A DNA stretch of 64,000 nt, from assembly GCA_946222005.1 (NCBI GenBank), contig CAMIHP010000002.1:25322-89321 (forward strand), written 5' to 3'. Position 1 is the first letter of the stretch, and the number at the start of each line of letters is the position of its first letter. The notes beneath the pieces are model-generated. The model ran no database searches, was not told the origin of the DNA, and saw only the letters and a program-made list of their open reading frames with translations. Positions 7,220 to 61,998 of this stretch are shown one piece after another. Both the position numbers and the translations under genes were made by a program. Source of the stretch: an uncultured Candidatus Saccharibacteria bacterium (lineage in GTDB: Bacteria > Patescibacteriota > Saccharimonadia > Saccharimonadales > Saccharimonadaceae).

Positions 7220-7237
7220 CGTCCTACTCCAGAGGAA

Positions 7238-9969: not shown

Positions 9970-9972
9970 GGG

Positions 9973-11281: not shown

Positions 11282-11338
11282 CAGTGTCTCTATTATACCA
11301 CTGAGTGCTGTAAACCTCTGTGTTCACCCCATTGATGG

Positions 11339-34244: not shown

Positions 34245-34274
34245 CAAGTAACTGAGGCATAGGGGGCCTCACGT

Positions 34275-35750: not shown

Positions 35751-35813
35751 CGAGTAATCATGCGGTGTGCCGAGAAAGGTGCACCGCATTACATAAGAGA
35801 AAGGAGTGTGATG

Positions 35814-36584: not shown

Positions 36585-36585
36585 G

Positions 36586-37527
36586 ATGAGTACAATTGTG
36601 ATTGCATTGGGTGGTAACGCCCTCCAAAGACAAGGTGAAGCAAGTGCGGCTGCCCAGCAGCGAGTGGCGAGTGAAACGGCGGCTCAGCTAGTGCCGCTGA
36701 TTGCAGCTGGGCATCGGCTGGTGATCGTCCACGGCAATGGGCCGCAGGTGGGGAACATCGTGCTCCATGAGGAGGCGATTAACACTCCTGAGGTGCCAAC
36801 GATGCCGCTTGATACGTGCGGGGCGATGAGCCAGGGGGAGATTGGCTACTGGCTGCAGCAGGCGCTGACGAATGAGTTTGCCCGCCATGGTATGCCAAAC
36901 CATGCCGTGACGATGGTGACGCAGACGGTGGTGGATGCGAATGACCCAGCGTTTGCAAATCCTACCAAGCCAATCGGGGTCTTTTATGCCTCCGAGGCTG
37001 AGGCACAGCAGTCGGCAGCAGGGCGTGATTTCGTCTTCAAAGAAGATGCGGGGCGAGGCTGGCGCCGCGTTGTGCCATCGCCACGGCCGCAGCGCGTGGT
37101 AGAAGAAGGTGCGGTGCGTGCCCTGCTTGATACCGGCTTAACAGTGGTGACGGCTGGCGGAGGCGGTATTCCGGTGGTTGAGAATGAAGCGCAGGGTATG
37201 GCTGGGGTCGAGGCGGTGATTGATAAGGACTTTACCGCTGCGGTGGTGGCTGATGCGATTGATGCCGAAGCCTTGGTGATCCTCACGGCCGTCGATAACG
37301 CGATGGTCGACTATGGTACGCCGCAGGCCCGTGCGATTAGTCAGACGACCAGCCAGGAGATGCAGGCTTATGCCGAGCAGGGGCAGTTTGCGTCCGGTAG
37401 TATGCTACCGAAGGTGCAGGCTGCGCTTAATTTCGTGGAAAAGCCTGGTCGGCGCGCCATCATTGCTAACCTAGAGCATGCCGCTGCCGCTGTGGCAGGC
37501 GAGCAAGGGACGATTATTGTGTCGTAG
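36586..37527 (+). CDS. arcC: Carbamate kinase.
   Basis: 'IVIALGGNAL', 'VIVHGNGPQVG', 313 aa. Starts 2 nt after the upstream stop. Confidence 0.9.
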   Translation: MSTIVIALGGNALQRQGEASAAAQQRVASETAAQLVPLIAAGHRLVIVHGNGPQVGNIVLHEEAINTPEVPTMPLDTCGAMSQGEIGYWLQQALTNEFARHGMPNHAVTMVTQTVVDANDPAFANPTKPIGVFYASEAEAQQSAAGRDFVFKEDAGRGWRRVVPSPRPQRVVEEGAVRALLDTGLTVVTAGGGGIPVVENEAQGMAGVEAVIDKDFTAAVVADAIDAEALVILTAVDNAMVDYGTPQARAISQTTSQEMQAYAEQGQFASGSMLPKVQAALNFVEKPGRRAIIANLEHAAAAVAGEQGTIIVS

Positions 37528-37711: not shown

Positions 37712-38986
37712 ATGAGGAGAATCGATATAATCAAGCGAGCAGGGCGGAACCTACGCCAAGCCAAGGCTCGCACAGCACTAACAGCACTGGCGATGTCGGT
37801 GGGGGCATTTACAATTGGTTTGGCGCTGATGCTGGGCAATGGCGGCCGGGCTTTCTTAACCTCGGTGATTGATAGTGCCGGTAGTGCCTCGACGGTGTAT
37901 GTGACGCATGCCCGTAACGAAAAGAAATTACCTGAATATGGCAAAGATAAGGCGGTGAATGAGAGCGGTACCCTCGTGCTGAACGATGATGATATAGCCA
38001 AGCTCAGCAAGCTTGATCACGTCAAGACGGTGCGGCCGTACGCGAATGTGACCCAAGTGGTGCGCTATGTAGAGAGCCCGGCCAACCACAAGCGGCTGAT
38101 TGCCTCGATTAACGTCAAAAATGAGGGCAAAACATCGAAGATTGTGGCCGGTGAGTTGACGAAGACTGATGATGGCACAGACCTCGTGCCTGGCCAAGCC
38201 ATCCTGGCCAAGGAATATTTGGCTGACTTTGGCTTTGCCTCGGCCCAGGATGCAATCGGCAAGACGGTGACGCTCCATGCTAAGGGGCCGGGCGGGACGC
38301 ATGATGTGCAGCTGACTATTGTGGCGGTCGAAACAGCCGGTATGGCCTCGATTGGCTACCAGCCTGGTGTGACGATTGCGACTGATGATGCACTGCTTAT
38401 CAACCAAAAGACCAAAGCTCCCGGCGCAGCTAACCAGTACCCAAGCGTCGTGGTACGGGCAGATAGCGATGATCATGCTGCTGCTGTGAAAGACGCAGTC
38501 GTCAAGCTCGGTGGTGGTACCTACCAAGCCCAGACCTTTACTGAAGCGAAGGAAGGTATGCTCAGTCTCATCAATGGGGCGCAGTACGGCCTGCTCGCCT
38601 TTGGTGCTCTCGCCTTGCTGGCTAGTATGTTTGGGATCATTAACACCATGTATATCTCGGTACTGGAGCGGACGCAGCAGATTGGCCTGATGAAGGCGCT
38701 GGGGATGCGTAGCCGTGATGTTGGTAAGCTCTTTCGCTACGAGGCTGCCCTGATTGGCGTCATCGGTGGTGCGATTGGTGCGGGCGGGGCTAGCCTACTG
38801 AGCCTGCTCAACCCATGGATCGTTGAGAAGCTCAAGTTTGAGGAGGGTATGCAGCTGCTTCTACCGGAAGCCTGGCAGATGGTCGCCCTCGTGGCTCTAC
38901 TAGCTATCCTCGGCATTATTGCCAGCTACTTACCAAGCCGCAAGGCAACCAAGCTTGACCCAATCGAGGCACTAAGGACGGAATAG
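37712..38986 (+). CDS. ABC transporter permease, FtsX/MacB-like, with an extracytoplasmic domain.
   Basis: N-terminal TM, roughly 250-aa extracytoplasmic domain, and three C-terminal TMs (FtsX-like fold). Confidence 0.8.
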   Translation: MRRIDIIKRAGRNLRQAKARTALTALAMSVGAFTIGLALMLGNGGRAFLTSVIDSAGSASTVYVTHARNEKKLPEYGKDKAVNESGTLVLNDDDIAKLSKLDHVKTVRPYANVTQVVRYVESPANHKRLIASINVKNEGKTSKIVAGELTKTDDGTDLVPGQAILAKEYLADFGFASAQDAIGKTVTLHAKGPGGTHDVQLTIVAVETAGMASIGYQPGVTIATDDALLINQKTKAPGAANQYPSVVVRADSDDHAAAVKDAVVKLGGGTYQAQTFTEAKEGMLSLINGAQYGLLAFGALALLASMFGIINTMYISVLERTQQIGLMKALGMRSRDVGKLFRYEAALIGVIGGAIGAGGASLLSLLNPWIVEKLKFEEGMQLLLPEAWQMVALVALLAILGIIASYLPSRKATKLDPIEALRTE

Positions 38987-39001
38987 AATAAGGAGAAGGA
39001 C

Positions 39002-39688
39002 ATGATTGAACTACGGCATATTACCAAAACCTATGGCAAAAAGCACAACCAATTTAAGGCACTCAATGACATCAACCTCACCATCCCTGGAGGCGCGAGC
39101 GTAGCCATCCTCGGCAAATCTGGCTCGGGTAAGTCCACCCTGATGCACGCTATCTCTGGCCTGGACCGGCCGCAAACGGGGCAAGTGGTGATCGGCGGGC
39201 GAGATATCCTGCAGATGAAGCCGCGGCAGGTTGATGCCTTCCGGGCACGGACGATTAGCTTTATCTTCCAGAGTTTCTTTGTCGAGGGTAATGACAGCGT
39301 GGTGAGCAATGTGATGCTGCCGCTGGAGATCGCTGGTGTGCCACGAGCGCAACGCAGCGCCAAGGTAAACCAGGCGCTCGAGGCGGTTGGCCTGGCCAGC
39401 AAAAAGCACAATAAGGCTAAGGATCTGTCCGGTGGGCAGAAGCAGCGTCTGGCGATTGCCCGAGCAATCGTGGGCGAGCCGAAGATCCTGTTTGCCGATG
39501 AGCCAACTGGCAACCTGGATAGCGAGACGGGTACCCAGATCGAGGAGCTGCTCTTTCGCCAGCAGCGTGAGCATGGCACAACGCTGATTATTGTGACGCA
39601 CGATGCGGATCTGGCTAAGCAATGTGACTACCAAGTGGTGATCAAAGACGGGCGTGTCACACGCCATAACATCCCAGGAGGGCACTGA
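39002..39688 (+). CDS. ABC transporter ATP-binding protein (MacB/LolD-like).
   Basis: 'GKSGSGKSTLMH', 'LSGGQKQRLAIARAI', 'LFADEPTGNLD'. Confidence 0.9.
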   Translation: MIELRHITKTYGKKHNQFKALNDINLTIPGGASVAILGKSGSGKSTLMHAISGLDRPQTGQVVIGGRDILQMKPRQVDAFRARTISFIFQSFFVEGNDSVVSNVMLPLEIAGVPRAQRSAKVNQALEAVGLASKKHNKAKDLSGGQKQRLAIARAIVGEPKILFADEPTGNLDSETGTQIEELLFRQQREHGTTLIIVTHDADLAKQCDYQVVIKDGRVTRHNIPGGH

Positions 39689-43875: not shown

Positions 43876-44098
43876 GTATAGTATTTTACTACATACGAGA
43901 AGAGATAAAAAACTGAACATGCCTTGAGATCACTTGTTATGTGCCGCTGGAGCCCTATGATTTACGGTGTATCATAATGTGAAAGGGAACTGTGAGTGTG
44001 CAAATGTCTTGTTTATACATGGATGTATGACATCGCTTGTACTACTTATGCTACGGTTGATGGTAGTGCTAGGTCTGAAGATACACTACAATAATAAT

Positions 44099-44638
44099 AT
44101 GAACCAAGAATGGAACGTTATAAGTCAAAAGAAGTTGGTCGACTCGTCGTGGTACAAGCTCAATATTGAAACCGTCAGGCTCCCGTCAGGCAAAGTCCTC
44201 GATGATTATTACGTGCGAGAGGGTATGAACGCCGTTTTGATCGTTCCACGCACTCATGAAGGCAAATTTTTACTGGTGCGTCAGTACAAACACGGAGCGC
44301 AGCAAAGTGTTATAGAATTTCCTGCGGGTAAGATTGATGCGGGTGAATCTGCTTTAATTGCTGCAAAAAGGGAATTATATGAAGAGACTGGAGGCACCTC
44401 CAGTCTTTTTGTAGAGGGACCTACATTTTTTGAGGACCCTACAAATAGCCGTGTCAAGATAGCGATCGTCTTTGCTGATAATGTCACTATAAAGCATAGG
44501 CAACATCTTGACGATAATGAGGATATTGAAGTAATACAGCTAACAACTGACGAGCTACGAACTATGCTTATGAACAATGAGCTATCTGTGGCAGCATCCG
44601 TAGCAGCAGGTTGGATAGCACTAGAGAGGAGATGGTAA
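44099..44638 (+). CDS. NUDIX hydrolase (ADP-ribose pyrophosphatase-like), low GC.
   Basis: Nudix box 'GKIDAGESALIAAKRELYEETG'. The longest ORF starts at 43967, but its first 44 aa look non-coding. Confidence 0.65.
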   Translation: MNQEWNVISQKKLVDSSWYKLNIETVRLPSGKVLDDYYVREGMNAVLIVPRTHEGKFLLVRQYKHGAQQSVIEFPAGKIDAGESALIAAKRELYEETGGTSSLFVEGPTFFEDPTNSRVKIAIVFADNVTIKHRQHLDDNEDIEVIQLTTDELRTMLMNNELSVAASVAAGWIALERRW

Positions 44639-44848
44639 CATGAATACATACGAGTCTGGGACAATAAACCAGGTATTGAAAAAAGCAAACTGATGATTGA
44701 GGTGATTGATAAGGAATGAGGAGTAGGACGGAGACTGTTTATCGATATGGTATCTAGACAGATATAACTCATAAAAGGGAAAATCAGAAGTTCTATATTC
44801 GTGCTAGAATAGTCAGAGAGTAGGAAGTAGGGGGTGAGGGTAGAAAAT

Positions 44849-45610
44849 ATGCCCAAGAAGAAACTAAATAATAATACCAAACTAAGCTTCCGTACCATTC
44901 TTCTCCGTAGTATTCTCTATGTAATTGGTGTACCAACAGTCATCATGCTTCTCCTTGTTGGCGGATTCTATCTCAAATTATGTGCTGAAGCTAGCCAAGC
45001 TCAAGCAGCAATGAAAACATATCTACATAGTAAATATGGTGAAGAATTTATCGTCGAACGACCAGAAAAGAATGGAAGCGGGCTCGGTGTAGAAGGGTGG
45101 TTTGAAGCAACAGCCTACCCGAAGAATCACACAGACATCCGCTTCATTGTTATGCTGTCATCCTCAGGGAAGCATGATGGCTATGCTGGTGCTGTATGGT
45201 CAAAAGAAGAGACTGATCGACTCAAACCTATTATTCAGCGTATCTTTAGTAAAGATGTAGTGTATAGTGTAACCATCCAATCGTCTATGACGCTACAAAC
45301 GAAAGATATACAAGTTGACGGTGTAATACCACGTTTTACACAAGCGGCGGCACAATATAAGCAGCAAATTCCATATAATATCACTATTCAAAAAACACAC
45401 CAAACACGAGAATATCAGGAAAAAATGCGCATCGTCGATAATCTTAAAGAGCTTGCAAAGGATCTGCCAGATACCGTTGACACTACTATTCGCTACCAAG
45501 CACAAACATCTGGAGGTAAGAAGTTTGATTTAGATATAACAATCATGGCATTAAAATCCACACCACAAGAAACATTAGTCACAATGTTTCAAGAAAAGGA
45601 GAGTCTATAA
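44849..45610 (+). CDS. Paralog 1 of a four-member family of type-II membrane-anchored proteins (conserved N-terminal TM anchor, divergent extracytoplasmic C-domain). Candidate immunity or variable surface protein.
   Basis: 'MPKKKLNNNTKLSFRTILLRSILYVIGVPTVIMLLLVGGFYLK' is shared almost identically with paralog 3, and clearly with paralogs 2 and 4. ATG preceded by a G-rich RBS. Confidence 0.6.
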   Translation: MPKKKLNNNTKLSFRTILLRSILYVIGVPTVIMLLLVGGFYLKLCAEASQAQAAMKTYLHSKYGEEFIVERPEKNGSGLGVEGWFEATAYPKNHTDIRFIVMLSSSGKHDGYAGAVWSKEETDRLKPIIQRIFSKDVVYSVTIQSSMTLQTKDIQVDGVIPRFTQAAAQYKQQIPYNITIQKTHQTREYQEKMRIVDNLKELAKDLPDTVDTTIRYQAQTSGGKKFDLDITIMALKSTPQETLVTMFQEKESL

Positions 45611-45734: not shown

Positions 45735-45752
45735 ATCTTGAGAGCAGAAAAT

Positions 45753-46505
45753 ATGTCCAATAAAAAACCAAACGATAACAGCAAACTAAGCTTCCGCACC
45801 ATCCTCTTCCGTAGTATTCTCTACGTGATTATCATTCCGACAGTTATCATGTTGGTAATATTTGGTATATTCTACACAAAATCTACTATTGATGATCATA
45901 TTGCTCAATCACATATGCGGTCATACCTCAAACGTAAGTATGGCCAAGAATTTATAGTAGAGAATTATCGAATCGAGGGGGCTGGCCTTGGAGTAGATGG
46001 TGTTGCCAAGGCTGAGGCGTATGCTAAAAGTGACCACACGATTCGATTTATGGTGAAGGGGTTTCCGGGGGACAGTCCATACAGTAATAACTATTGGGAT
46101 GGATACCCCGATATGACATGGGCAAAACACCTCAAAAAGGATATTGATCCTATGATAAAAAACGTATTTGGTGCCGACACATCGCTCGCATCAATAGAAG
46201 TTTACAGTATACCTGCAGTGAACCAAAGGATAGGAAAAGAAATACCATTGTATCGTGATGCCTTCCAGCGATTTGGTAAAGATATACATGTCGCTGTACG
46301 TATAAAGAGTAGGGTTGTCCATAATGATGTAGCCGCACAGATATACCAGATAATCGTCAAGCTGCGAGAGTTCGGTGTGTCGCTATCTATTAATTATGAG
46401 AACCCCATGGTATATGTTGCATTAGTCGAAGAAACAAGTATACGCGGTATACATTCACCACAGGATGTAAGGAAATATATAGAAATGAAGGGGGAAAAGC
46501 TATGA
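45753..46505 (+). CDS. Paralog 2 of the membrane-anchored family.
   Basis: 'MSNKKPNDNSKLSFRTILFRSILYVIIIPTVIMLVIFGIFYTK'. The C-domain is divergent but alignable in patches with the other three paralogs. Confidence 0.6.
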   Translation: MSNKKPNDNSKLSFRTILFRSILYVIIIPTVIMLVIFGIFYTKSTIDDHIAQSHMRSYLKRKYGQEFIVENYRIEGAGLGVDGVAKAEAYAKSDHTIRFMVKGFPGDSPYSNNYWDGYPDMTWAKHLKKDIDPMIKNVFGADTSLASIEVYSIPAVNQRIGKEIPLYRDAFQRFGKDIHVAVRIKSRVVHNDVAAQIYQIIVKLREFGVSLSINYENPMVYVALVEETSIRGIHSPQDVRKYIEMKGEKL

Positions 46506-46543
46506 AAATAGAACAATGCTTGGTGTTAAGCTCATTATCTTAA
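46502..46543 (+). pseudogene. Second degenerate 5' fragment of the lipase gene (14 codons) trailing paralog 2.
   Basis: 'MKIEQCLVLSSLS*' against the lipase 'MVKDEQFLTLSSLAY'. Confidence 0.5.
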
Positions 46544-46750
46544 TAGTACATCCCTAAGTAGTTTTGCCTCTAGCAGCGAGAAGCCACCATTGAGGCGCTC
46601 ATAAAACAGGGAAAAATTGACAATTATCGCCATAGCGATGGATCTATTTCTCTCGAATGCAAACCCCTCTCCTCTCTCATATCTTGACACCTCATCAACG
46701 CTACGACTTTCAGAGTAAGAAGAATAACTCAATAGTTCTGCATTTGTGCT

Positions 46751-46779: not shown

Positions 46780-46797
46780 TTGTTGGGAGAAGAGAAT

Positions 46798-47538
46798 ATG
46801 TCCAAGAAGGAACTAAATAATAACACCAAACTAAGCTTCCGTACCATTCTTCTCCGTGGTATTCTCTATGTCATCATTATTCCAACGGCTGTTATGATTC
46901 TCCTTATTGGTGGATTCTATCTCAAGGCCGATATTGAGGCGAATCAAGCTCAAGCAACAATGAAAACTTATTTACAAAACAAATATAATGAGGAATTCAT
47001 CGTTGAGAAACCAGAGCGGAAGAGCAGTGGCCTCGGCGTAGAGGGAGTACTAGCTGCCAATGCTTACCCTATACGGGATCCTCATATACGATTTTCTGTA
47101 AACACCTCATCGAATGGCAATCAAGATAACTATCCAGGTGTAATATGGTCCCGCTCTCAGAATGATAAGTTAATAAAGGATCATATCATAAATAACTCAT
47201 GGGCGCAGACCGACATCACTGTCAGTCTTGCAGACAATACAGCACAGTCGCTGAGCGGTACACCTAAAACATACGAAGAAGCGATAGCGTCTTATGGAAA
47301 AGATATTCACTACATAATAAGTGTTAATCGTAATACAAATCAATTGGCTGTCGATAACCGGGATCGGTACTATCTCATAAGCCTTATTAGATATATCAAT
47401 CAGCAAAAAGTTGGCTACCGTATTATACATTACAGCATACATGATACGAAGATGGACGCAGACATAGTGTGCAATATACAGGTAGAAGGTACGCGTCTAT
47501 TAGATGAAAAACAAGCCAATGAATGCTTTAGAAAATAA
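46798..47538 (+). CDS. Paralog 3 of the membrane-anchored family.
   Basis: The first roughly 130 nt are near-identical to paralog 1 at the DNA level. The C-terminal domain is divergent. Confidence 0.6.
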   Translation: MSKKELNNNTKLSFRTILLRGILYVIIIPTAVMILLIGGFYLKADIEANQAQATMKTYLQNKYNEEFIVEKPERKSSGLGVEGVLAANAYPIRDPHIRFSVNTSSNGNQDNYPGVIWSRSQNDKLIKDHIINNSWAQTDITVSLADNTAQSLSGTPKTYEEAIASYGKDIHYIISVNRNTNQLAVDNRDRYYLISLIRYINQQKVGYRIIHYSIHDTKMDADIVCNIQVEGTRLLDEKQANECFRK

Positions 47539-47556
47539 GGGGTGGGGACAGAAAAC

Positions 47557-48318
47557 ATGCACGAGAAAGAACCAGACGAGAATAATAGGCTAAGCTTTCG
47601 CACCATCCTCTTTCGTGGTATCCTCCGCGTTATCATTATTCCGACATGCGTCATACTTCTATTAACTGGTGCATTAATCGGTATATTTCATATTAAGTAT
47701 CTTATAGAGGCTCATCAAGCTCAGGCTGAAATGCGCGCCTACCTAGAGAAAAAATATCACCAGCACTTCATTATCAAGAACTATCGAATTGAAGGAGGAG
47801 GATTCGCAAGAAGAGGCGGCAAAGTTGCAGATGCACATAGAGAGGGTAGTTCTTATACCTTTCGTGTTTTAGAGAAAGATCACCGGCTCTATCGTGATAA
47901 CTACCTCTCAGCACTTTACAATGAGCAGGAAGAAAAAGATCTTACCAAGATGGTTAAAAAATTGTCTATACCTGCAGTAAAATATATGCCAGATATTACA
48001 ATTGCTCCTGATGTAGCTGATGGGATACAGGGTACGCCAGCTTTTGCTGAGATGTTGCAAAAGTATGGAGACCATATTATATATGAAGTATCTATTGTTG
48101 TAGTAGGGGATCAGGTAAAAGAAGAAGATGTCCAAAACGTAAGAAAACTTATGGAGTATGCCCAATCAAAAAACCCGAGAAGTTATGCTGTGAGATATGT
48201 TGTAAATAGCAGAACTGAAGATGCACGATATATTTGTCAGGAGTATGGAGGTATAAGCGAGAAAACGGCGCAAGAAACTTCTAAGGATTGCTTTAAAAAG
48301 AGTAAGGGAAGGATATAG
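47557..48318 (+). CDS. Paralog 4 of the membrane-anchored family. Directly followed by the lipase/RTX gene.
   Basis: 'MHEKEPDENNRLSFRTILFRGILRVIIIPTCVILLLTG'. Stop at 48318 and the lipase ATG at 48321. Confidence 0.6.
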   Translation: MHEKEPDENNRLSFRTILFRGILRVIIIPTCVILLLTGALIGIFHIKYLIEAHQAQAEMRAYLEKKYHQHFIIKNYRIEGGGFARRGGKVADAHREGSSYTFRVLEKDHRLYRDNYLSALYNEQEEKDLTKMVKKLSIPAVKYMPDITIAPDVADGIQGTPAFAEMLQKYGDHIIYEVSIVVVGDQVKEEDVQNVRKLMEYAQSKNPRSYAVRYVVNSRTEDARYICQEYGGISEKTAQETSKDCFKKSKGRI

Positions 48319-48320
48319 TA

Positions 48321-50909
48321 ATGGTAAAAGACGAACAGTTTTTAACTTTGAGCTCATTGGCATATGAGCCGTTTTCTGATAATGATATCAACAAATCTTT
48401 AAAAGAAATTATTAAGAAAGTACCTAGAAACAACCGTCTTGAACTTAAACCTCTCTCCTCCCTCGCATCCTGGCACCTCATTAACGCCACAACCACTTCA
48501 TCTGGTATGTCGGCTATTGCTGTGCAAGATCCAGCCACCAAGGACATTGTCTTTGCCTATCGCGGAACGGATATTGATAAGAATATCTGGGAGGCGATGA
48601 AAGATATTGAGTCGGATATTGCGATTGCATCGAGTGGAAATGTTTTTGTGCAGGATGGGCTGAACCAATTCCACGATGCTTACACCTTCTATACCGAGAC
48701 GATCAAGAAAGTTGGTGGCGGTGCTCATGTAGGCACCAAGAGCTTCACTGGCCATTCACTCGGTGGTGGACTAGCGCAGTATATGGCGTATAAAACTGGT
48801 GGTGCATATAAGACGGTCACCTTCGACGCGGTAGGGATTGGCCAAGTGCTGAAGAATGTCAACCCGCGGGACTATGATACCTCAGTAACGGACTACACCA
48901 ATGAGCACGATATCATTGGTATGTATGGTGTGCAGCTGGGCCGCACAGTGTACATTAAGGATATGAACAGTGATGAGCTGCGTAAGAAGGACCGTGACTA
49001 TGTGACAATACTGCAGTATGCGCAGGGTGCCATTGCTGTGGCGGCACGCAATGGCGAGCATGCCTCAGCAATGGGGTGGATGGCAGCTGCAAGCATAGCA
49101 TCGCTCGGGTATGCAGTGAATCGCACTAGCCAAGAGCTAGCTTTCGATGCACATCGTCCAAGTAGTTTATTAACTGATGATGGTACGCTAGCAGCCACTG
49201 TACCGCAGGGAGACTCCATCACGAATACATTGGCTGGCGCACTTCGTACAACACTGGAAGTATATACCGGTATTGCCAATGGTGTTCATTTCATCGTTGT
49301 TGAGATTCCAAGTGCTACAGCTGAAGAGCTTGTGCGAATAACGCTCTCTGTCGCTGAAAGTGGTAAGAAGATCATAGTCGATGTAGCACAGGTGATTCGC
49401 GATCAGGTGAATATCCTTACCTCTAGTGTATATGAAACAAGCCGGATTATGGGTGAGCAAGCCGATGCCTTTGCTCGTGTGCTGATGACACAACTTGCTG
49501 GGGCTACGCAATGGACAACTTCGCTCCGCCTCGACATTGCCGTGCTGAGTGCACTGAGTGGTGCGGCCAGAATAACGCGCGATACACTTGCTGCTATAGT
49601 AGAGACACCTGATGCGATGACACGTTGGCTGCAGATGGTCTTTGGTGCAAGTGCACATGTCGTTGGTACAGCAGCAGACGATTCTATTGATGGTTATGAT
49701 CATATCCCAGACTATGGCGTGACGAAGCGTGCGGTCTATGTAGAGGGCCGAGAAGGGAATGATTACGTAACAGGAACGAATTCTGATGATACATTGATGG
49801 GTGATGCAGGGAATGACACTATCATGGGCAAAGGTGGTAATGATATGATTTTTGGCGGTGATGGTGACGATTCTCTATATGGTGATGGTGGTAGTGATAC
49901 AATTTTTGGCGGTGCTGGCGATGACAACCTTAATGGTTCAGAAGGTGATTCTAATAAGCTCTATGGTGGCGCAGGTGATGATGGAATAAATGGTTCCGGG
50001 TTGATTGTTGGCGGCGCAGGTGATGACCGGATCGACTCTCAATTTGGGAACGATACATATATCTATAACCGCGGTGATGGTAATGACACGATTAGCGACT
50101 TTGGCGGCATTGACACTGTACGGTTTGGTGCGGGTATCGTGCCAAGCGGTGTAACGGCACGCTATGAGAGCCGCCCGTATGGCGCGCCAGGCAATGATTA
50201 TGATCTTGTCTTAGATATAAAAGGCTCTGGTAGTATTCGCATCAAAGACTATTATGGTTCGAGTGACTGGGCAGGACGGAACCGTCCCGTACCGGGTCAT
50301 CGTGTCGAGCGCTTTGTTTTTGCAGATGGCACCGTGTGGGATGAGCAGGCAATCCGCACCATGACGCATAACTTACAAGGAACAGCTGACGATGATTCTA
50401 TTGACGCCTTTGATGATGATGGTATCACGGTACATAGTGGAGCTGGTAACGACACGGTGCGTGGCGCGAGGCAAGACGCAAATGTGCTCTATGGGGACGA
50501 CGGTGATGACAGCCTCATTGGTGGTGAGAAAAATGATATGCTGACTGGTGGGCAGGGTAATGATGTGTTGTATGGTGCAGGTGGCAACGATATCTATACC
50601 TTCAAGCGAGGGGATGGTGTTGACACGATAAGTGATGATGACGGCGTTGACACACTGCAGTTTGGCGAAGGCATTAATCCGCGTGATGTGACTGTTCGAC
50701 GTATCCATCTTTCATCATATGAAAGTCTCGAGCTTGCTATCACGGGTACAGGTGATAAAATCATTATCCAAGGATATTTTGGCTCGTACTCATACGACGG
50801 GCTGCATGAGAGCACAAGCCAGCAGATCGAAAAAGTGGTTTTTGCTGATGGTACGGTATGGACACCGGAGATAATCGCGCAAATGCTTGTAGAGCACACG
50901 AGTGAATAG
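48321..50909 (+). CDS. Large secreted-effector-like protein. N-terminal lipase class 3 / Mbeg1-like alpha/beta-hydrolase domain, then RTX nonapeptide Ca2+-binding repeats and two haemolysin-type Ca-binding-related (HCBP_related-like) domains.
   Basis: 'VFAYRGTDIDKNIWEAMKDI' and the nucleophile elbow 'FTGHSLGGGLAQYMA'. Repeated 'GNDTIMGKGGNDMIFGGDGDDSLYGDGGSDTIFGGAGDDNLNG' repeats. Two copies of '...RGDG(N/V)DTISD..G(I/V)DT(V/L)(R/Q)FG.GI.P..VT.R.......VFADGTVW'. No N-terminal signal peptide. Confidence 0.8.
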   Translation: MVKDEQFLTLSSLAYEPFSDNDINKSLKEIIKKVPRNNRLELKPLSSLASWHLINATTTSSGMSAIAVQDPATKDIVFAYRGTDIDKNIWEAMKDIESDIAIASSGNVFVQDGLNQFHDAYTFYTETIKKVGGGAHVGTKSFTGHSLGGGLAQYMAYKTGGAYKTVTFDAVGIGQVLKNVNPRDYDTSVTDYTNEHDIIGMYGVQLGRTVYIKDMNSDELRKKDRDYVTILQYAQGAIAVAARNGEHASAMGWMAAASIASLGYAVNRTSQELAFDAHRPSSLLTDDGTLAATVPQGDSITNTLAGALRTTLEVYTGIANGVHFIVVEIPSATAEELVRITLSVAESGKKIIVDVAQVIRDQVNILTSSVYETSRIMGEQADAFARVLMTQLAGATQWTTSLRLDIAVLSALSGAARITRDTLAAIVETPDAMTRWLQMVFGASAHVVGTAADDSIDGYDHIPDYGVTKRAVYVEGREGNDYVTGTNSDDTLMGDAGNDTIMGKGGNDMIFGGDGDDSLYGDGGSDTIFGGAGDDNLNGSEGDSNKLYGGAGDDGINGSGLIVGGAGDDRIDSQFGNDTYIYNRGDGNDTISDFGGIDTVRFGAGIVPSGVTARYESRPYGAPGNDYDLVLDIKGSGSIRIKDYYGSSDWAGRNRPVPGHRVERFVFADGTVWDEQAIRTMTHNLQGTADDDSIDAFDDDGITVHSGAGNDTVRGARQDANVLYGDDGDDSLIGGEKNDMLTGGQGNDVLYGAGGNDIYTFKRGDGVDTISDDDGVDTLQFGEGINPRDVTVRRIHLSSYESLELAITGTGDKIIIQGYFGSYSYDGLHESTSQQIEKVVFADGTVWTPEIIAQMLVEHTSE

Positions 50910-51150
50910 CGTATAACCTCTGTCTTGGCTCCATCTCATCTGTTGTATTAGCTTTATTGTCTTTATATTGGTAGGCTAGATGGTTTGGGCTACTTTCTCA
51001 ATATTGGTGCTTAGGCAGAATACTAGCTTTCATAACTTCCTAGAGGAAGAATAAGACAGCGAGAAATAATAAATGGGCTGATATGAGCACGTCGCCTCTG
51101 CAGGAGTCTCTTTAAGCTAGCTTTCATCTCTCTCCTGCACAATACCACAC

Positions 51151-51879
51151 ATGAAAACAGCAACCATGACCCAATCAGCCGGAGCGGTAGAGGCACCCGC
51201 TGCGCCAGTGCTGCGTGCGCTTAATCCGCGAATGCTCAGCATCGATATTGTGCTGCCAGTGCTTAATGAGGTGCATGTTATTGCGCGCTCGGTGAGCACG
51301 TTGCACGCGTATTTATCACAGCATGTGCCGCATCGCTGGCGCATCATTATTGCCGACAATGGCAGCACGGACGGCACAGCGGAAGCGGCGCACCAATTGG
51401 CGGTACGTTACCCCGAGGTGTGGCTCATCCAGCTTAGCGAGAAAGGCCGCGGCCGGGCTCTCAAGCAAGCGTGGCTACAGAGCTCGGCTGATATTCTGGC
51501 CTACATGGATATCGACCTCTCTACCAATTTAGACAGCTTCGTGTCAATGATCACCCCGCTGATTATGGGTGAGGCAGCTGTGGCGACGGGCTCGCGCCTA
51601 ATGAAGCAGTCGCGCACAAGCCGCGGCTTCAAGCGTGACACTATCTCGCGTTGCTACAACTGGATTATTCGCCGGACGATGAAGACAAAATTTGTCGATG
51701 CCCAGTGCGGTTTCAAGACGATTCGGCGCGATGCGGCACGCAAGATTCTGCCTCGCATCAAGGATACTGGCTGGTTTTTTGATACCGAGCTGCTCGTCAA
51801 GGCAGAGTACGCTGGCTACACCATCCACGAGGAGCCAGTTTTTGGGCTGGCTCTCTATTATTTCTTTTATCTCAACTAA
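51151..51879 (+). CDS. Family 2 glycosyltransferase (dolichyl-/polyprenyl-phosphate sugar transferase-like).
   Basis: 'IDIVLPVLNE', 'IIADNGSTDGT', 'MDIDLS' DxD-type motifs. Confidence 0.8.
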   Translation: MKTATMTQSAGAVEAPAAPVLRALNPRMLSIDIVLPVLNEVHVIARSVSTLHAYLSQHVPHRWRIIIADNGSTDGTAEAAHQLAVRYPEVWLIQLSEKGRGRALKQAWLQSSADILAYMDIDLSTNLDSFVSMITPLIMGEAAVATGSRLMKQSRTSRGFKRDTISRCYNWIIRRTMKTKFVDAQCGFKTIRRDAARKILPRIKDTGWFFDTELLVKAEYAGYTIHEEPVFGLALYYFFYLN

Positions 51880-51887: not shown

Positions 51888-52388
51888 CTACTTGTGGCGC
51901 ATTGCCAGGCCAGCGCGGAGCGTCTCATGATAAAACGGTAGCAGCGGCAGAGCATCGATCGCGGTGAGTGGATACCACGCCGCTGCGCTATTTTCGGTAT
52001 TAAGCCGAGGCGTTATGCGCTGCGCACATTCAACGAGCACCGGATACACATACCACTGGCGGCTATGCGCTGCATCGATCTGCATCAGGGGCTGCTGCGC
52101 CACCACGATAGTGGTCCCTCGCGGGTCAATGCCTAGCTCCTCGGCCAGTTCTTGCCCAGCTAGTACCGTAATGCTCGTATCGGTTCGGTCGATGAAGCCA
52201 GAGACGCCATTGAGCATATGCGGCTGCTCCACCTCTTGCTGGCTCCGCCGCACCAGTAAAATCTCATCACCGTAGCATACCACGCAGTTGAAGACAAAGC
52301 AGATGGGCTGGCCAGTGTAGTCGATCCTTCCATCGGGCAGGCGTGGATAGTCTTTGGTTTGGTAGGCAATCATCGCAAGCGGATTCAT
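51888..52388 (-). CDS. NUDIX-family hydrolase (divergent).
   Basis: Nudix-like 'GFIDRTDTSITVLAGQELAEELGI'. Start chosen at 'MNPLAMIAY'. Confidence 0.55.
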   Translation of the reverse strand: MNPLAMIAYQTKDYPRLPDGRIDYTGQPICFVFNCVVCYGDEILLVRRSQQEVEQPHMLNGVSGFIDRTDTSITVLAGQELAEELGIDPRGTTIVVAQQPLMQIDAAHSRQWYVYPVLVECAQRITPRLNTENSAAAWYPLTAIDALPLLPFYHETLRAGLAMRHK

Positions 52389-52472
52389 ATGATTAGTATA
52401 GCATAAGAGGAATGAACAGAGGTAGAAAATACTAATGCGTAAGTCATAATATACCCTGATATATTTGCCTTT

Positions 52473-52856
52473 TTGTCTATACAAACCCTTGAGGAATGGC
52501 GTAATGAAGTAAAAAATCGAATTTTTAAGACTGCCCTAAGCCACGTCGTGCATACCACAGATACAACCATAAACAAGGAGTATACGACAATGGCACAGCA
52601 ACCAACTCTCACCACAGACGAAGCTCTCGTTTTGCAGCAGATCAACGAGCATGGCGAAGATGATGTGATTGGCCTAGAGCAGAGCCTGCGCATGAGCCGC
52701 CCAAAGCTTATGGCGCAACTCACTCACCTCAAGAACAAAGGGCTTATTACGGTCAAGATGACGACTGGTGATTGGCAGTGTGGTGAGCTATCTCCTCGCG
52801 GAGCACACCCTGCGGCCGATCCGCGCCAACATGCACGCTCAGACGCAGTTCGTTAG
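52473..52856 (+). CDS. Small winged-helix-like hypothetical protein. Its 3' end overlaps the 5' end of the truncated histidine kinase in another frame.
   Basis: 'DEALVLQQINEHGEDDVIGLEQSLRMSRPKLMAQLTHLKNKGLITVK' has a wHTH-like pattern. The true start may be the internal Met (MAQQPT). Confidence 0.35.
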   Translation: MSIQTLEEWRNEVKNRIFKTALSHVVHTTDTTINKEYTTMAQQPTLTTDEALVLQQINEHGEDDVIGLEQSLRMSRPKLMAQLTHLKNKGLITVKMTTGDWQCGELSPRGAHPAADPRQHARSDAVR

Positions 52857-60850: not shown

Positions 60851-61798
60851 TTATTGTATGTGCTTTGTCTCTACGTCCTGCCAGTCGTTGTTGTGCCGGA
60901 GCTCGGCGCTGTCACCAGCGAAGACCGCTTTTGCTTCGGTATTGTCGCTCAGCGTCCAGAGGAACCAGGCGGTCATGTAGGCATCGCCATATTCGAGGAC
61001 ATCTTTGTGACCAACGGTCTTGCGCCGCGCGATGACGCTCGGCTTATCTGCATTAAGAGCGCGGAAGTTCTGCTGCAAGTCGCTCAGTGGGCTAATGGCG
61101 AGGTTGTCGCTTGGGCCAGTGCCAGCCATCATGTAGGTGGCTGTCTTGAGCTTGCTGGTGTCGTAGTGCCAGTTGTTGTCGTTTGCGGTGCCATGGCCGA
61201 CGGCGCTAGCAGTGTAGAGGGAGGTATAGCGGTTACTATTGCCGTATTTTGTGGCGGCATTGATAGCACCGGCACCACCTTGGGAGTGTCCAGCGATACC
61301 GATTTTCCTTGTATTGACGAAGTCCTTAATGGGGCTGCTCTCGGCAGTGTTGAGCTCTAGTGCAGCATCAAGCATGATCGATGTCGTTGCGCCAGTGCCT
61401 GGCCAGCCATCCTCATTACCAATGACAACAAAACCCCAGCTGGCCAAATGCTCGAAGATTGGCGCATAAGTAGACGCGTAGGTGGCGGTGCCATTGACCA
61501 TCAGCACAAGTGGGAAGGTTTGGCCCGGAGCGGTGCGCTGTGGAGTGTAGATGTGATACTCTTTGATGGCTGCGCTATCGCTGCGATGAGTGTGGTGCGC
61601 AACGCGGTAGGGGCCAGGCTTAGTATAACGCTGCTCTAATGTGCCACTGGGGCTCAATTTCGCAGCATAATCCTTCGCCACGCCGTCATCGCCAGTGATG
61701 CTTTGGTTGAGGTAATTCATATAAAGCACAAGCAGCACAAAGCACACGAAAAGTATTGCTATGATGATACCCAGAATTTTCAGAAGTTTTTTCGCCAT
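60851..61798 (-). CDS. Secreted/membrane-anchored alpha/beta hydrolase of the dienelactone-hydrolase / cutinase-PETase-like type.
   Basis: N-terminal TM 'KILGIIIAILFVCFVLLVLY'. 'IGIAGHSQGGAGA' nucleophile elbow. Start chosen at 'MAKKLLK'. Confidence 0.65.
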   Translation of the reverse strand: MAKKLLKILGIIIAILFVCFVLLVLYMNYLNQSITGDDGVAKDYAAKLSPSGTLEQRYTKPGPYRVAHHTHRSDSAAIKEYHIYTPQRTAPGQTFPLVLMVNGTATYASTYAPIFEHLASWGFVVIGNEDGWPGTGATTSIMLDAALELNTAESSPIKDFVNTRKIGIAGHSQGGAGAINAATKYGNSNRYTSLYTASAVGHGTANDNNWHYDTSKLKTATYMMAGTGPSDNLAISPLSDLQQNFRALNADKPSVIARRKTVGHKDVLEYGDAYMTAWFLWTLSDNTEAKAVFAGDSAELRHNNDWQDVETKHIQ

Positions 61799-61998
61799 CG
61801 GTATGTCCTTATTCGGTTCAATAATACTAGTAATATTATCTACTATACACCGGGTGCATAGTAATGGCAAGGGAGAGTGATTTCTTTTTTACACGGTATA
61901 TTTTGGCTCTGCTAGTAAGAGATCAAGTAGCTTTACCTCTTGGCTATGGCAGTGAAGCGCCTAAGCATTGCACTCACAAGAGCCAACGGTATATACTG

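What the first reader, a model, noticed from the sequence alone, without database searches (positions are those of the whole stretch)
48321..50909. Lipase_3/Mbeg1-like hydrolase fused to RTX repeats and duplicated HCBP-related domains, without an N-terminal signal peptide
The N-terminal roughly 230 aa carry a fungal-lipase-like core. Its motifs are 'AYRGTDIDKNIWEAMKDI' and the Ser elbow 'GHSLGG'.

The C-terminal half carries GGxGxDxxx nonapeptide repeats and two copies of a roughly 100-aa domain ending '(F/V)VFADGTVW'. These are normally found in T1SS-secreted haemolysins and adhesins.

The absence of a Sec signal, together with the RTX repeats, suggests C-terminal-signal secretion. That would be unexpected if the host cell is monoderm. 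It also raises the question of whether the target is self-like neighbours or a host cell.
Basis: partly seen in the sequence, partly recalled or inferred. Interest (0 to 1): 0.7.

Follow-up and report, generated by a model that had tools for sequence, protein, structure and literature searches.

The report
Saccharibacteria lipase–RTX toxin with immunity array
An ultrasmall, parasitic mouth bacterium (Saccharibacteria) carries a calcium-repeat-tagged lipase next to four copies of a membrane-anchored partner gene, which looks like a membrane-attacking toxin with its antidotes and gives a testable candidate for how these lipid-dependent bacteria fight neighbours or harvest lipids.

Summary
ORF 48321-50909 (+), 862 aa, has a class-3-lipase-fold N-domain with a conserved Ser146/Asp197/His278 triad. 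It also has a poorly modelled middle region, two RTX + HCBP_related modules, and no Sec signal, TM segment or Cys.

The window comes from a human-associated Candidatus Saccharibacteria, a monoderm epibiont.

Four tandem paralogues of a signal-anchored ~255-aa protein sit directly upstream, inside a low-GC island. Across 31 related genomes this locus is a recombination hot spot. There are five partner types. Four of them carry their own matched 5' lipase segment. The lipase is intact in 10 genomes, split in 6 and deleted in 15, while the partner genes stay intact and under purifying selection. This is the signature of a polymorphic toxin–immunity system.

Distant Saccharibacteria homologues, including cultivated Nanosynbacter featherlites, have the order partner gene → lipase–SPM–RTX → HlyB-type ABC → HlyD. 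So type-1 export of the family in monoderms is supported.

This copy, however, lacks the family's conserved C-terminal tail, the SPM and adjacent T1SS genes. Its own export route is therefore unresolved.

Verdict: a new variant of a known kind, apparently undescribed for Patescibacteria.

The parts
44834..45610 (+). imm1 (type I1): candidate immunity protein, 258-aa ORF. The likely true start is the conserved Met at codon 7. N-terminal signal-anchor TM helix plus an extracytoplasmic alpha/beta domain.
   Evidence: ORF. No Pfam hit. Paralogue alignment. TM peak of 2.39 at aa ~36. One of five types found across 31 genomes. dN/dS 0.20.
45738..46505 (+). imm2 (type I2): candidate immunity paralogue, 255 aa.
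   Evidence: dN/dS 0.23.
46503..46708 (+). Degenerate orphan 5' lipase fragment of the I2-type cassette. It reads 'MKIEQCLVLSSLS**YIPK*...ECKPLSSLIS*HLINATT', with stop codons.
   Evidence: tblastn of LIP aa 1-110 against the DNA downstream of each imm gene. Sequence read. The same fragment is intact and in frame with the lipase in L024/L031.
46780..47538 (+). imm3 (type I3): candidate immunity paralogue, 252-aa ORF. Probable start is the ATG at 46798.
   Evidence: dN/dS 0.23.
47542..48318 (+). imm4 (type I4): candidate cognate immunity protein, 258-aa ORF. Probable start is Met6 at 47557. Its stop lies 2 nt before the lipase ATG.
48303..48312 (+). Shine-Dalgarno-like AAGGGAAGGA inside the end of imm4, 8 nt before the lipase ATG (translational coupling).
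   Evidence: Sequence read directly.
48321..50909 (+). LIP: 862-aa lipase-RTX-HCBP protein (the finding).
   Evidence: dN/dS over 11 intact alleles is 0.22 overall.
48366..48437 (+). Hypervariable N-terminal segment of LIP (aa 16-39). It differs with the immunity type that lies directly upstream.
   Evidence: Type-specific sequences follow I2, I3, I4 and I5. For aa 1-60, dN = 0.27 and dS = 0.77, against 0.008 and 0.12 in the lipase core.
48438..48494 (+). Conserved junction 'LELKPLSSLASWHLINATT' (aa 40-58), shared by all cassette types. Likely the recombination site.
   Evidence: All four fragment types converge here. DNA alignments of I5/I2-type loci to the window begin at 48437/48438.
48321..49220 (+). 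Class-3-lipase-fold catalytic domain (aa 1-300). Triad residues: Ser146 (48756-48758), Asp197 (48909-48911), His278 (49152-49154).
   Evidence: AF2 model. Foldseek hits to class-3 lipases. Conservation: Ser 150/150, Asp 126/135, His 45/46 in the family alignment. Codons checked. dN/dS 0.06.
49221..49715 (+). Middle region (aa 301-465). Ala/Thr/Val-rich, with predicted helices and two strands. No Pfam hit. Conserved in the closest homologues up to about aa 390-424.
   Evidence: pLDDT ~30. No Pfam match. Homologue coverage. dN/dS 0.18.
49800..50036 (+). First RTX nonapeptide block (aa 494-572).
   Evidence: Motif scan. Pfam HemolysinCabind. PDB sequence hits to CyaA/HlyA RTX blocks.
49899..50363 (+). 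Duplicated module A (aa 527-681): RTX repeats plus an HCBP_related domain, ending 'RFVFADGTVW'.
   Evidence: Self-alignment at 41% identity, E = 2e-30. Pfam HCBP_related has 2 stretches.
50427..50885 (+). Duplicated module B (aa 703-855): RTX repeats plus an HCBP_related domain (Pfam aa 803-848), ending 'KVVFADGTVW'. The protein stops 7 aa later, without the family's C-terminal tail.
48764..48774 (+). Left copy (TGGTGGACTAG) of the 11-bp imperfect direct repeat at the boundary of the 2.19-kb deletion allele.
   Evidence: All six truncated loci aligned at DNA level (of the 15 deletion-class loci) break at 48774|50969, apart from L022, whose left block ends at 48767, with overlap. Sequences read.
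50969..50979 (+). Right copy (TGGTAGGCTAG) of the deletion-boundary repeat, in the 3' untranslated region.
50990..51013 (+). Possible out-of-frame relic 'LLSQYWCL' of the family's C-terminal tail motif '(I/L)(S/V)SQYWT'.
   Evidence: tblastn of the L042 tail against the window 3' region, E = 0.077 in a 600-nt search space. Translation checked. Weak evidence.

Best explanation
**What it is.** LIP is the toxin of a polymorphic lipase toxin–immunity locus of Saccharibacteria.

**Shown.**
- The N-domain is a class-3-type serine lipase/phospholipase fold. Its Ser146-Asp197-His278 triad is conserved, and the domain is under strong purifying selection.
- LIP is translationally coupled to imm4, the last gene in an array of four signal-anchored paralogues whose ectodomains face outward.
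- The locus recombines by cassettes of the form [imm gene + matched first ~40 codons of the lipase].
- Lineages that lost the lipase keep intact imm genes.

**Inferred.**
- The lipase is exported unfolded, without Sec.
- Its RTX/HCBP beta-roll modules fold on binding extracellular Ca2+.
- The lipase then hydrolyses membrane phospholipids from the outer face of nearby cells.
- The targets are, at the least, other Saccharibacteria sharing the same host surface, and possibly the actinobacterial host too.
- The imm ectodomains bind the lipase at or near its hypervariable N-terminal segment and block it at the producer's own membrane.

**Export route.** For the family the route is a HlyB/HlyD type-1 system. 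For this short, tail-less copy the exporter is not identified.
For: **Enzyme.**
- Fold matches class-3 lipases.
- The triad is invariant: Ser 150/150, Asp 126/135, His 45/46.
- dN/dS is 0.06 for the lipase core and 0.18-0.19 for the rest of the protein.

**Immunity-like partner.**
- Single N-terminal TM helix preceded by basic residues.
- An imm homologue (22-50% identity) lies directly upstream of the lipase in every distant locus examined: L035, L036, L037/38, L039/40, L041/42.

**Population signature (31 species-level genomes).**
- Five imm types occur, in variable number (1-5) and order.
- The lipase is intact in 10 genomes, split in 6 and deleted in 15. All six deletion alleles aligned at DNA level share one junction.
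- imm genes remain full length, with dN/dS 0.17-0.30. The values are the same in toxin-less genomes.
- Type-specific 5' lipase fragments follow I2, I3, I4 and I5 and converge on one conserved junction.
- The same orphan-fragment architecture occurs in the distant L037 and L039.

**Export of the family.**
- All 9 long homologues tested are lipase + RTX + HCBP_related.
- HlyB-type ABC (TIGR01846, above cut-off) and HlyD (TIGR01843, above cut-off) lie downstream in L037/38 and L041/42. The start of the same ABC follows the toxin in L035. A 49-codon HlyD remnant follows the truncated lipase in L039/40.
- The ABC N-domain aligns to the E. coli HlyB C39-like domain, with Pro at the catalytic-Cys position.

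**Closest functional precedent.** S. aureus TslA/TslM: an N-terminal lipase toxin, variable arrays of TM-anchored extracellular immunity proteins, and toxin often lost while immunity is retained (PMC13560087).
Against: - No biochemical or genetic test exists. Lipase activity, toxicity and neutralisation are all inferred.
- This copy lacks the conserved C-terminal tail present in complete family members. It also lacks the SPM.
- No HlyB/HlyD lies in the window or within 10 kb in 31 related genomes. Export of this particular protein is therefore unproven, and it may not be secreted at all.
- The toxin body is nearly invariant (90-99% identity) while five imm types coexist. That is unusual for an arms race unless the short hypervariable N-segment sets specificity, which is untested.
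- The imm fold has no match to a characterised lipase immunity protein.
- Some 'split' alleles may be MAG assembly errors.
- Pfam Lipase_3 is below its cut-off for this sequence.
Confidence: 0.6

Rival explanations
1. Host-lipid harvesting enzyme. The lipase is mainly nutritional. It is released or displayed at the epibiont-host interface and cleaves the actinobacterial host's membrane lipids into lysolipids and fatty acids, which the lipid-auxotrophic Saccharibacterium takes up. The imm proteins only protect the producer's own membrane. This overlaps with the best explanation in mechanism and differs in target and purpose.
For: Patescibacteria lack lipid synthesis. No lipid uptake or breakdown mechanism has been identified, and lysolipids from neighbours have been proposed as the source (PMC11665869). 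The family is conserved across divergent Saccharibacteria, including cultivated Nanosynbacter. The lipase core is under strong purifying selection.
Against: Half of the closely related genomes have deleted or broken the gene yet persist, so it is dispensable. Keeping up to five diversified imm types under purifying selection in toxin-less genomes points to exposure to other cells' toxin rather than simple self-protection. Matched [imm + lipase 5' segment] cassettes are typical of conflict systems.
Confidence: 0.2
2. FrpD/FrpC-like surface tethering. The upstream signal-anchored proteins are not inhibitors. They are anchors that bind the N-terminal domain of the secreted RTX protein and hold it on the producer's surface, where it acts as an adhesin or contact-dependent enzyme towards the host cell.
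For: In Neisseria, frpD lies upstream of frpC. The membrane-anchored FrpD binds the N-terminal domain of the T1SS-secreted, SPM-containing FrpC with very high affinity (abstract of PMC5233953). Saccharibacteria homologues carry an SPM after the lipase domain. The imm type is genetically linked to the lipase N-terminal segment.
Against: Arrays of up to five divergent anchors, kept intact under purifying selection in genomes whose ligand is deleted, are hard to explain. The window protein has no SPM (Pfam list). There is no similarity to FrpD in fold searches.
Confidence: 0.08
3. Decaying relic. The island was acquired from a lower-GC Saccharibacterium without its T1SS. The tail-less lipase-RTX gene can no longer be exported and is on its way to loss. 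The apparent conservation reflects recent spread by recombination.
For: The island has 40-48% GC against 54% in the flanks. The C-terminal tail, SPM and linked HlyB/HlyD are all missing. 21 of 31 genomes carry a split or deleted gene. A possible out-of-frame tail relic lies at 50990-51013.
Against: Eleven intact alleles differ by dS = 0.12-0.20, yet dN/dS is 0.06 in the lipase core and 0.19 in the RTX part. This means sustained purifying selection over the whole ORF, including the delivery half. The stop position is conserved in all intact alleles.
Confidence: 0.1
4. Lipase plus lipase-specific foldase (Lif-like), or an ordinary secreted digestive family I.3-type RTX lipase with no role in antagonism.
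For: Family I.3 lipases have an N-terminal catalytic domain plus C-terminal RTX and use T1SS. PDB hits 2z8x/2qua were obtained. Lif chaperones are N-terminally membrane-anchored and encoded next to lipases (established knowledge).
Against: The PDB hits to family I.3 lipases cover only the RTX region, aa 472-816. The catalytic domain instead resembles class-3/Tsl-type lipases. The imm ectodomain is alpha/beta and cystatin/PepSY-like, not the all-helical Lif fold. Multi-copy, shuffled imm genes retained after lipase loss do not fit a dedicated foldase.
Confidence: 0.02

Closest known systems
S. aureus T7SS 'reverse' lipase toxins TslA (Tsl1) and TslM (Tsl2), with their TilA/TilM immunity proteins (PMC10730906, PMC13560087)
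   Same: - N-terminal class-3-like lipase toxin domain (TslM also models onto Yarrowia Lip2), a middle linker, and a C-terminal delivery domain.
[quoted passage not shown]
- Variable multi-copy immunity arrays at recombination hot spots.
- Toxin frequently absent or frameshifted while immunity is retained. The same pattern is seen here.
- NCBIfam SA1320_fam (a staphylococcal model) hits aa 75-201 at 54 bits.
   Different: - The delivery domain here is RTX + HCBP_related rather than LXG-like helices.
- The linked machinery in homologues is HlyB/HlyD rather than T7SS/WXG100 partners.
- The immunity family is unrelated to DUF576/DUF1433: no Pfam hit, and it is larger at ~255 aa.
- The host is a Patescibacterium.
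- Immunity genes lie upstream and carry matched 5' toxin fragments.
RTX-HlyB-HlyD operons of oral Gram-positive bacteria, e.g. FtxA/FtxB/FtxD of Filifactor alocis (PMC7692872), and SPM-containing RTX proteins such as Neisseria FrpC (PMC7078468)
   Same: - An RTX protein with an N-terminal effector region in a monoderm, followed by HlyB- and HlyD-type genes with no TolC or acyltransferase. The Saccharibacteria homologues L037/38 and L041/42 have exactly this layout, plus an SPM with the 'DP' motif 'RRVDPLVFDLDGDG'.
   Different: - The window copy has no SPM, no C-terminal tail and no adjacent exporter.
- No lipase domain or immunity partner was reported for FtxA.
Family I.3 bacterial lipases (Pseudomonas TliA/PML, Serratia LipA) and polyurethanases PueA/B
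   Same: N-terminal lipase plus C-terminal RTX beta-roll, no Sec signal, T1SS substrates. The RTX part is hit in PDB (2z8x, 2qua) and NCBIfam (PueAB) searches.
   Different: Similarity is confined to the RTX region. The catalytic domain belongs to a different lineage (class-3/Tsl-like, precomputed PF26363). Family I.3 lipases have no immunity partner and are Gram-negative exoenzymes.
T6SS lipase effectors Tle with periplasmic Tli immunity proteins
   Same: A membrane-targeting lipase toxin neutralised by immunity proteins located on the far side of the cytoplasmic membrane, often in multi-copy arrays (established knowledge).
   Different: Different secretion system, different folds of effector and immunity protein, and diderm hosts. 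No sequence relation was detected here.
Orphan toxin/immunity arrays of CDI (cdiA-CT/cdiI) and Rhs loci
   Same: Serial cassettes of [toxin fragment + immunity gene] that share a conserved junction used for recombination, leaving displaced orphan fragments (established knowledge). Here [imm + lipase 5' fragment] cassettes converge on 'LELKPLSSLASWHLINATT'.
   Different: The polarity is mirrored: the variable part is the N-terminus and the cassettes lie upstream. Only ~25-45 residues of the toxin vary, not a whole toxin domain.

Membership tests
Pfam Lipase_3 (PF01764, class 3 lipase) | Score at or above the Pfam gathering cut-off (22 bits) | tested here: not met
   17.7 bits for the whole protein and 19.4 bits for aa 1-300. 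Several homologues do pass (P0087 25.5, P0088 28.5 bits).
Class-3 (fungal-type) lipase fold | alpha/beta-hydrolase fold superimposable on class-3 lipases | tested here: met
   The AF2 core has pLDDT >90. The top 15 Foldseek PDB hits are class-3 lipases or the related feruloyl esterase FaeA, with E down to 6e-7. There is also a weak sequence hit to 3ngm.
Class-3 (fungal-type) lipase fold | Ser-Asp-His triad with Ser in a GXSXG elbow | tested here: met
   GHS146LG, D197 and H278 are conserved at 150/150, 126/135 and 45/46 in the family alignment. The spacing mirrors the Thermomyces lipase triad S146/D201/H258 (own knowledge). Three-dimensional geometry could not be measured, because coordinates are not exposed.
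Pfam Mbeg1-like (PF11187) | Score at or above the gathering cut-off (21.1 bits) | tested here: not met
   11.1 bits, E = 0.27. Only some homologues reach it (P0088 21.6 bits).
NCBIfam SA1320 family (NF047388) | Score at or above the curated cut-off (230 bits) | tested here: not met
   54.3 bits, covering only aa 75-201. This is a related domain, not membership.
RTX protein (HemolysinCabind PF00353 + HCBP_related PF06594) | Nonapeptide GGxGxDxxx repeats and HCBP_related domains above their cut-offs | tested here: met
   77.6 bits (cut-off 23) and 96.3 bits (cut-off 21.4). Eleven nonapeptide matches. PDB hits to CyaA/HlyA RTX blocks at E = 7e-38.
Type 1 secretion substrate | No N-terminal Sec/Tat signal | tested here: met
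   The N-terminus 'MVKDEQFLTLSSLAYEPFSD' has no hydrophobic core. Maximum hydropathy in the protein is 1.24.
Type 1 secretion substrate | C-terminal secretion signal downstream of the last repeat | tested here: not met
   Complete family members end in the conserved '...LIQAMASF..DTGMSWEQAL..VQSI.SQYWT.PTA'. The window protein and all alleles in its clade stop at '...IIAQMLVEHTSE'. T1SS signals have no universal consensus, so this is evidence against, not proof.
Type 1 secretion substrate | Cognate HlyB-type ABC and HlyD-type adaptor encoded in the genome (usually adjacent) | tested here: inconclusive
   Neither is adjacent. The only ABC exporters in the window are a MsbA-like pair and a MacB-like pair, all far below T1SS cut-offs. 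None lies within 10 kb in 31 related genomes. Both are present next to homologues in other Saccharibacteria. The rest of this genome could not be searched.
SPM-containing ('clip-and-link') RTX proteins | Self-processing module (PF26745) with an Asp-Pro cleavage site | tested here: not met
   No PF26745 hit is recorded for this protein, whereas P0004, P0027 and the L041/L042 proteins have it.
Family I.3 lipase | Catalytic domain homologous to PML/LipA/TliA | tested here: not met
   PDB matches to 2z8x/2qua cover only aa 472-816, the RTX region. The N-domain alone hits class-3 lipases only.
T7SS reverse lipase toxins (Tsl1/Tsl2) | C-terminal LXG-like helical targeting domain and an adjacent WXG100/Lap partner | tested here: not met
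   The C-terminal half is RTX/HCBP_related. Neighbouring ORFs are imm paralogues, NUDIX and GT2.
Polymorphic toxin-immunity system | Immunity gene adjacent to the toxin and co-conserved across divergent loci | tested here: met
   An imm homologue lies directly upstream in the window clade and in L035, L036, L037/38, L039/40 and L041/42.
Polymorphic toxin-immunity system | Immunity genes retained and under selection where the toxin is lost; orphan toxin fragments and shuffled arrays | tested here: met
   Fifteen toxin-deleted genomes keep 1-5 imm genes (intact in all but L027, which retains only I2 fragments). imm dN/dS is 0.17-0.30 both in toxin-less genomes and overall. Orphan 5' fragments are described.
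Polymorphic toxin-immunity system | Toxin is toxic and is specifically neutralised by the cognate immunity protein | not testable with these tools
   This requires expression and competition experiments. Complex modelling was not available (structure jobs exhausted).

The most novel reading that the evidence does not exclude
The locus is a cassette-switching system. Recombination at the conserved 'LELKPLSSLASWHLINATT' junction swaps a short specificity-determining N-terminal segment of an otherwise invariant lipase together with its matched surface-anchored partner. The result is a mirrored, N-terminal version of CDI/Rhs orphan switching. The lipase is also the missing enzyme by which lipid-auxotrophic Patescibacteria generate lysolipids and fatty acids from neighbouring membranes, and in this clade it is exported without the canonical T1SS tail by a route not yet known.
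Probability: 0.15. Interest if true: 0.85.

Novelty: new variant of a known kind. Interest (0 to 1): 0.62.

Why it matters
Saccharibacteria and other Patescibacteria are monoderm, lipid-auxotrophic epibionts. According to a 2024 perspective (PMC11665869), no lipid uptake or breakdown mechanism has been identified for them. No interbacterial toxin–immunity system of theirs appears in the papers I could search.

This locus and its relatives provide three things:
- A concrete, conserved candidate membrane-active enzyme.
- A matching family of surface-anchored partner proteins.
- Evidence that HlyB/HlyD-type type-1 secretion of RTX proteins operates in this phylum.

The full operon is present in a cultivated strain (Nanosynbacter featherlites, CP040004.1), and Saccharibacteria are now genetically tractable (PMC10633639). 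The hypotheses of inter-epibiont warfare and host-lipid harvesting can therefore be tested directly.

The mirrored cassette architecture, [immunity + 5' toxin segment], is also an unusual way to diversify a toxin.

Tried and rejected
**Rejected readings**
- **Anti-phage defence system.** No PADLOC hit for LIP, imm4 or imm1.
- **Cell-wall-anchored adhesin with a dead hydrolase.** No LPXTG. The triad is intact and the core is under strong purifying selection.
- **N-terminal toxin swap.** I first suspected that P0001/P0002 (96% identity, covering only the middle and C-terminal parts) were the same delivery module with a different N-terminal toxin. They are simply gene calls that start at internal Met residues of split alleles.
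- **Window ABC exporters as the T1SS.** The pair at 26022-29824 is MsbA-like and sits next to a MarR gene. The pair at 37712-39688 is MacB/FtsX-like. All score far below the HlyB/PrtD cut-offs and have no C39-like domain.

**Dead ends**
- **Contig-length fingerprints.** I tried to link a HlyD homologue to contigs of the window clade this way. The 120 listed hits were all the 76-77%-identity Nanosynbacter-type group or closer (up to 97%), and none matched.
- **Fold search against afdb50.** The library was not available.
- **Promoter/terminator scan.** It gave nothing beyond chance levels. There are no tRNA genes in the window.
- **Literature.** Searches for Saccharibacteria combined with lipase, RTX, T1SS, toxin or immunity found no paper describing this locus.

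Full report
**1. The observation**

The ORF at 48321-50909 (+) is real and encodes 862 aa. The quoted motifs are present: AYRGTDIDKNIWEAMKDI at aa 79 and GHSLGG at aa 144. VFADGTVW occurs at aa 666 and 840.

Pfam gives HCBP_related twice (96.3 bits) and HemolysinCabind three times (77.6 bits). Both are far above their cut-offs.

The lipase call is weaker by sequence:
- Lipase_3 scores 17.7-19.4 bits, below its cut-off of 22.
- Mbeg1-like is not significant at 11.1 bits.

The lipase call is nevertheless sound by structure and conservation:
- With a 29-sequence alignment, AlphaFold2 models aa 1-215 and 280-300 at pLDDT >90.
- The best PDB fold matches are class-3 lipases: Yarrowia Lip2, Thermomyces lipase and FaeA, with E down to 6e-7.
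- In an alignment of 173 family members, Ser146 is present in 150/150, Asp197 in 126/135 and His278 in 45/46 of the sequences that cover each position.

The C-terminal duplication is significant: aa 527-681 versus 703-855, 41% identity, E = 2e-30. The protein has no signal peptide, TM segment or Cys and no LPXTG.

**2. The organism**

A scan of species-representative genomes found the gene, or remnants of it, in 31 genomes. All are labelled Candidatus Saccharibacteria, many from human oral samples. The flanking genes are 93-99% identical to the window.

The window also carries the arginine deiminase operon. Patescibacteria are described as monoderm and unable to make lipids (PMC11665869).

**3.

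Four tandem paralogues of ~255 aa lie directly upstream:
- 44834-45610
- 45738-46505
- 46780-47538
- 47542-48318

The last one ends 2 nt before the lipase ATG and has a Shine-Dalgarno-like sequence inside its 3' end. None has a Pfam or NCBIfam hit.

The array and the lipase gene form a low-GC island: 40% GC for the array and 48% for the lipase, against 54% in the flanks.

**4. Comparative anatomy of the locus**

Across the 31 genomes the flanks are fixed (TyrRS/NUDIX on one side; GT2/NUDIX/HK/DsbA on the other). The interior is hypervariable.
- There are five imm types (I1-I5). Between 1 and 5 of them are present, in differing order.
- The lipase is a single intact ORF in 10 genomes and split or N-truncated in 6.
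- In 15 genomes it is reduced to aa 1-~151.
- All six deletion alleles examined at DNA level share essentially one junction, window 48774|50969 (L022's left alignment block ends at 48767). It is flanked by an imperfect 11-bp direct repeat and begins right after the GHSLGG codons.
- In these toxin-less genomes the imm genes remain full length, except in L027 where only I2 fragments remain. Their dN/dS (0.17-0.29) is the same as in the whole set (0.17-0.30).

The intact lipase alleles are under purifying selection. dN/dS is 0.06 in the lipase core, 0.18 in the middle region and 0.19 in the RTX/HCBP part.

The exception is the first ~40-60 codons. These exist as deeply divergent types (dN 0.27, dS 0.77). 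Each type is physically linked to one imm type:
- Downstream of I2, I3, I4 and I5 lies a type-specific 5' lipase fragment.
- All fragment types converge on the conserved 'LELKPLSSLASWHLINATT' (aa 40-58).
- Internal cassettes keep degenerate fragments. In the window this is 46503-46708, after imm2.

This is the pattern of orphan toxin/immunity cassette arrays, mirrored to the N-terminus.

**5. The wider family**

An exhaustive profile search found 404 representative clusters, 27 of them below 1e-30. All nine long homologues tested have the same architecture: N-terminal lipase, then RTX and HCBP_related.

The imm family is small, with 8 clusters, and it always accompanies the lipase. In L035, L036, L037/38, L039/40 and L041/42 an imm homologue (22-50% identity) sits directly upstream of a lipase homologue (34-65% identity). 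L037 and L039 also contain orphan lipase N-fragments between imm copies.

One homologue (P0015) fuses the lipase domain to what looks by eye like a phage gpD/baseplate-hub-type C-terminus (not tested). If correct, this fits a portable toxin domain.

**6. Secretion**

Evidence for type-1 export of the family:
- In L037/38 and L041/42 the toxin gene is followed by an ABC protein that passes TIGR01846 type_I_sec_HlyB (935 bits, cut-off 726) and an adaptor that passes TIGR01843 type_I_hlyD (332 bits, cut-off 209). L042 is the complete genome CP040004.1. NCBI names its HlyD homologue as belonging to Candidatus Nanosynbacter featherlites.
- The N-domain of the ABC protein aligns to the C39-like domain of E. 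coli HlyB, with Pro where C39 peptidases have the catalytic Cys. The alignment is; the position of the Cys is my own knowledge.
- L035 has the start of the same ABC gene right after the toxin. L039/40 keep only the last 49 codons of HlyD after a truncated lipase.
- Over a hundred HlyD homologues at 76-97% identity are listed. Several are named by NCBI as Saccharibacteria proteins.
- RTX-HlyB-HlyD operons are already known in oral Gram-positives (FtxA of Filifactor alocis, PMC7692872).

So type-1 export of this family in monoderm Saccharibacteria is well supported.

These longer homologues also carry a self-processing module (Pfam 'SPM') with an Asp-Pro motif after the lipase/middle region. In FrpC, the SPM clips the N-terminal part off in the presence of Ca2+ (PMC7078468).

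**7. The caveat for this copy**

The window protein has no SPM. It also ends seven residues after its last HCBP_related domain. Complete family members continue with a conserved ~45-aa tail, '...LIQAMASF..DTGMSWEQAL..VQSI.SQYWT.PTA'.

A possible out-of-frame relic, 'LLSQYWCL', lies 80 nt past the stop codon. No HlyB/HlyD gene is in the 64-kb window or within 10 kb of the locus in any of the 31 genomes. I could not search the rest of these genomes.

Sustained purifying selection on the RTX half argues that the delivery part still matters. The exporter for this copy is unknown.

**8. Interpretation**

The best-supported reading is a polymorphic lipase toxin with surface-anchored immunity proteins, most similar in logic to S. 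aureus TslA/TslM with TilA/TilM. Shared features are an N-terminal lipase, a C-terminal delivery domain, variable arrays of TM-anchored extracellular immunity proteins, and frequent toxin loss with immunity kept (PMC13560087). Here the chassis is RTX/type-1 rather than T7SS.

Retention of diversified imm genes in toxin-less genomes implies exposure to toxin made by neighbours.

A nutritional role on host membranes is not excluded. It would address the open question of lipid acquisition.

The rivals fit the array data less well. These are FrpD-like tethering, a decaying relic, a Lif-type foldase and an ordinary family I.3 lipase.

**9. Novelty**

None of the Saccharibacteria papers I could search mentions this lipase, RTX proteins or type-1 secretion. 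The components are all of known kinds. Three things appear new:
- Their combination in Patescibacteria.
- The new immunity family.
- The mirrored [imm + 5' toxin segment] cassette architecture.

I rate it a new variant of a known kind.

Noticed in passing
L042 (CP040004.1, 578138-599478, reversed) 908-11341; also L041, L037/L038: The cultivated Candidatus Nanosynbacter featherlites carries a complete operon. Its order is imm-like gene (241 aa) → lipase + self-processing module (755 aa) and RTX/HCBP (1288 aa; one ORF interrupted at different places in different assemblies) → HlyB-type ABC (710 aa) → HlyD (446 aa). This would be an RTX/T1SS toxin operon in a monoderm Patescibacterium and an experimentally tractable relative of the window gene.
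   Followed up: partly
window 32013-37527: Arginine deiminase system: arginine deiminase (32013-33248), ornithine carbamoyltransferase (33249-34244), amino-acid permease (34275-35750), a DDAH/ADI-like protein (35760-36584) and an amino-acid (carbamate) kinase (36586-37527).
   Followed up: no
window 43967-44638 (+) and 51888-52484 (-): Two NUDIX hydrolase genes bracket the variable island, together with a GT2 gene at 51151-51879. Many related genomes have about 2.2 kb of extra DNA between GT2 and the second NUDIX gene (e.g. L002 13521-15715) that is absent from the window. The adjacent histidine-kinase gene is truncated in several genomes (e.g. L003, L023, L024). The variable region therefore extends beyond the toxin locus.
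   Followed up: no
window 24150-25520 (+) and 23029-24069 (+): A GH18 (chitinase-like) glycosyl hydrolase lies next to a VanZ/RDD membrane protein. It is a possible cell-wall or host-surface glycan enzyme in an epibiont.
   Followed up: no
window 60851-61870 (-): A second alpha/beta-hydrolase with PETase/chlorophyllase/PAF-acetylhydrolase-like hits (PF12740, 40.9 bits). It is another candidate esterase or lipase in a lipid-auxotrophic organism.
   Followed up: no
P0015 (739 aa, NCBI-sourced, contig 23.6 kb): A distant homologue fuses the same N-terminal lipase domain to a C-terminal region that resembles a phage late-control-D/baseplate-hub (VgrG-like) protein by eye. This suggests the lipase domain is also delivered by a contractile or tail-like apparatus elsewhere. 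It was not tested with a domain search.
   Followed up: no
L039/L040 8344-9193: In a ~49% GC relative, one deletion removed everything from the middle of the lipase through RTX and HlyB to all but the last 49 codons of HlyD. The upstream imm genes and an orphan lipase N-fragment were left behind. This is an independent example of toxin and exporter loss with immunity retained.
   Followed up: partly
window 26022-29824 with 25555-26025: A heterodimeric MsbA-like ABC exporter pair sits directly downstream of a MarR regulator. The second subunit has a ~90-aa insertion or extension in its TM domain (ABC_membrane spans aa 53-382). It is not a T1SS by NCBIfam scores; its substrate is unknown.
   Followed up: partly
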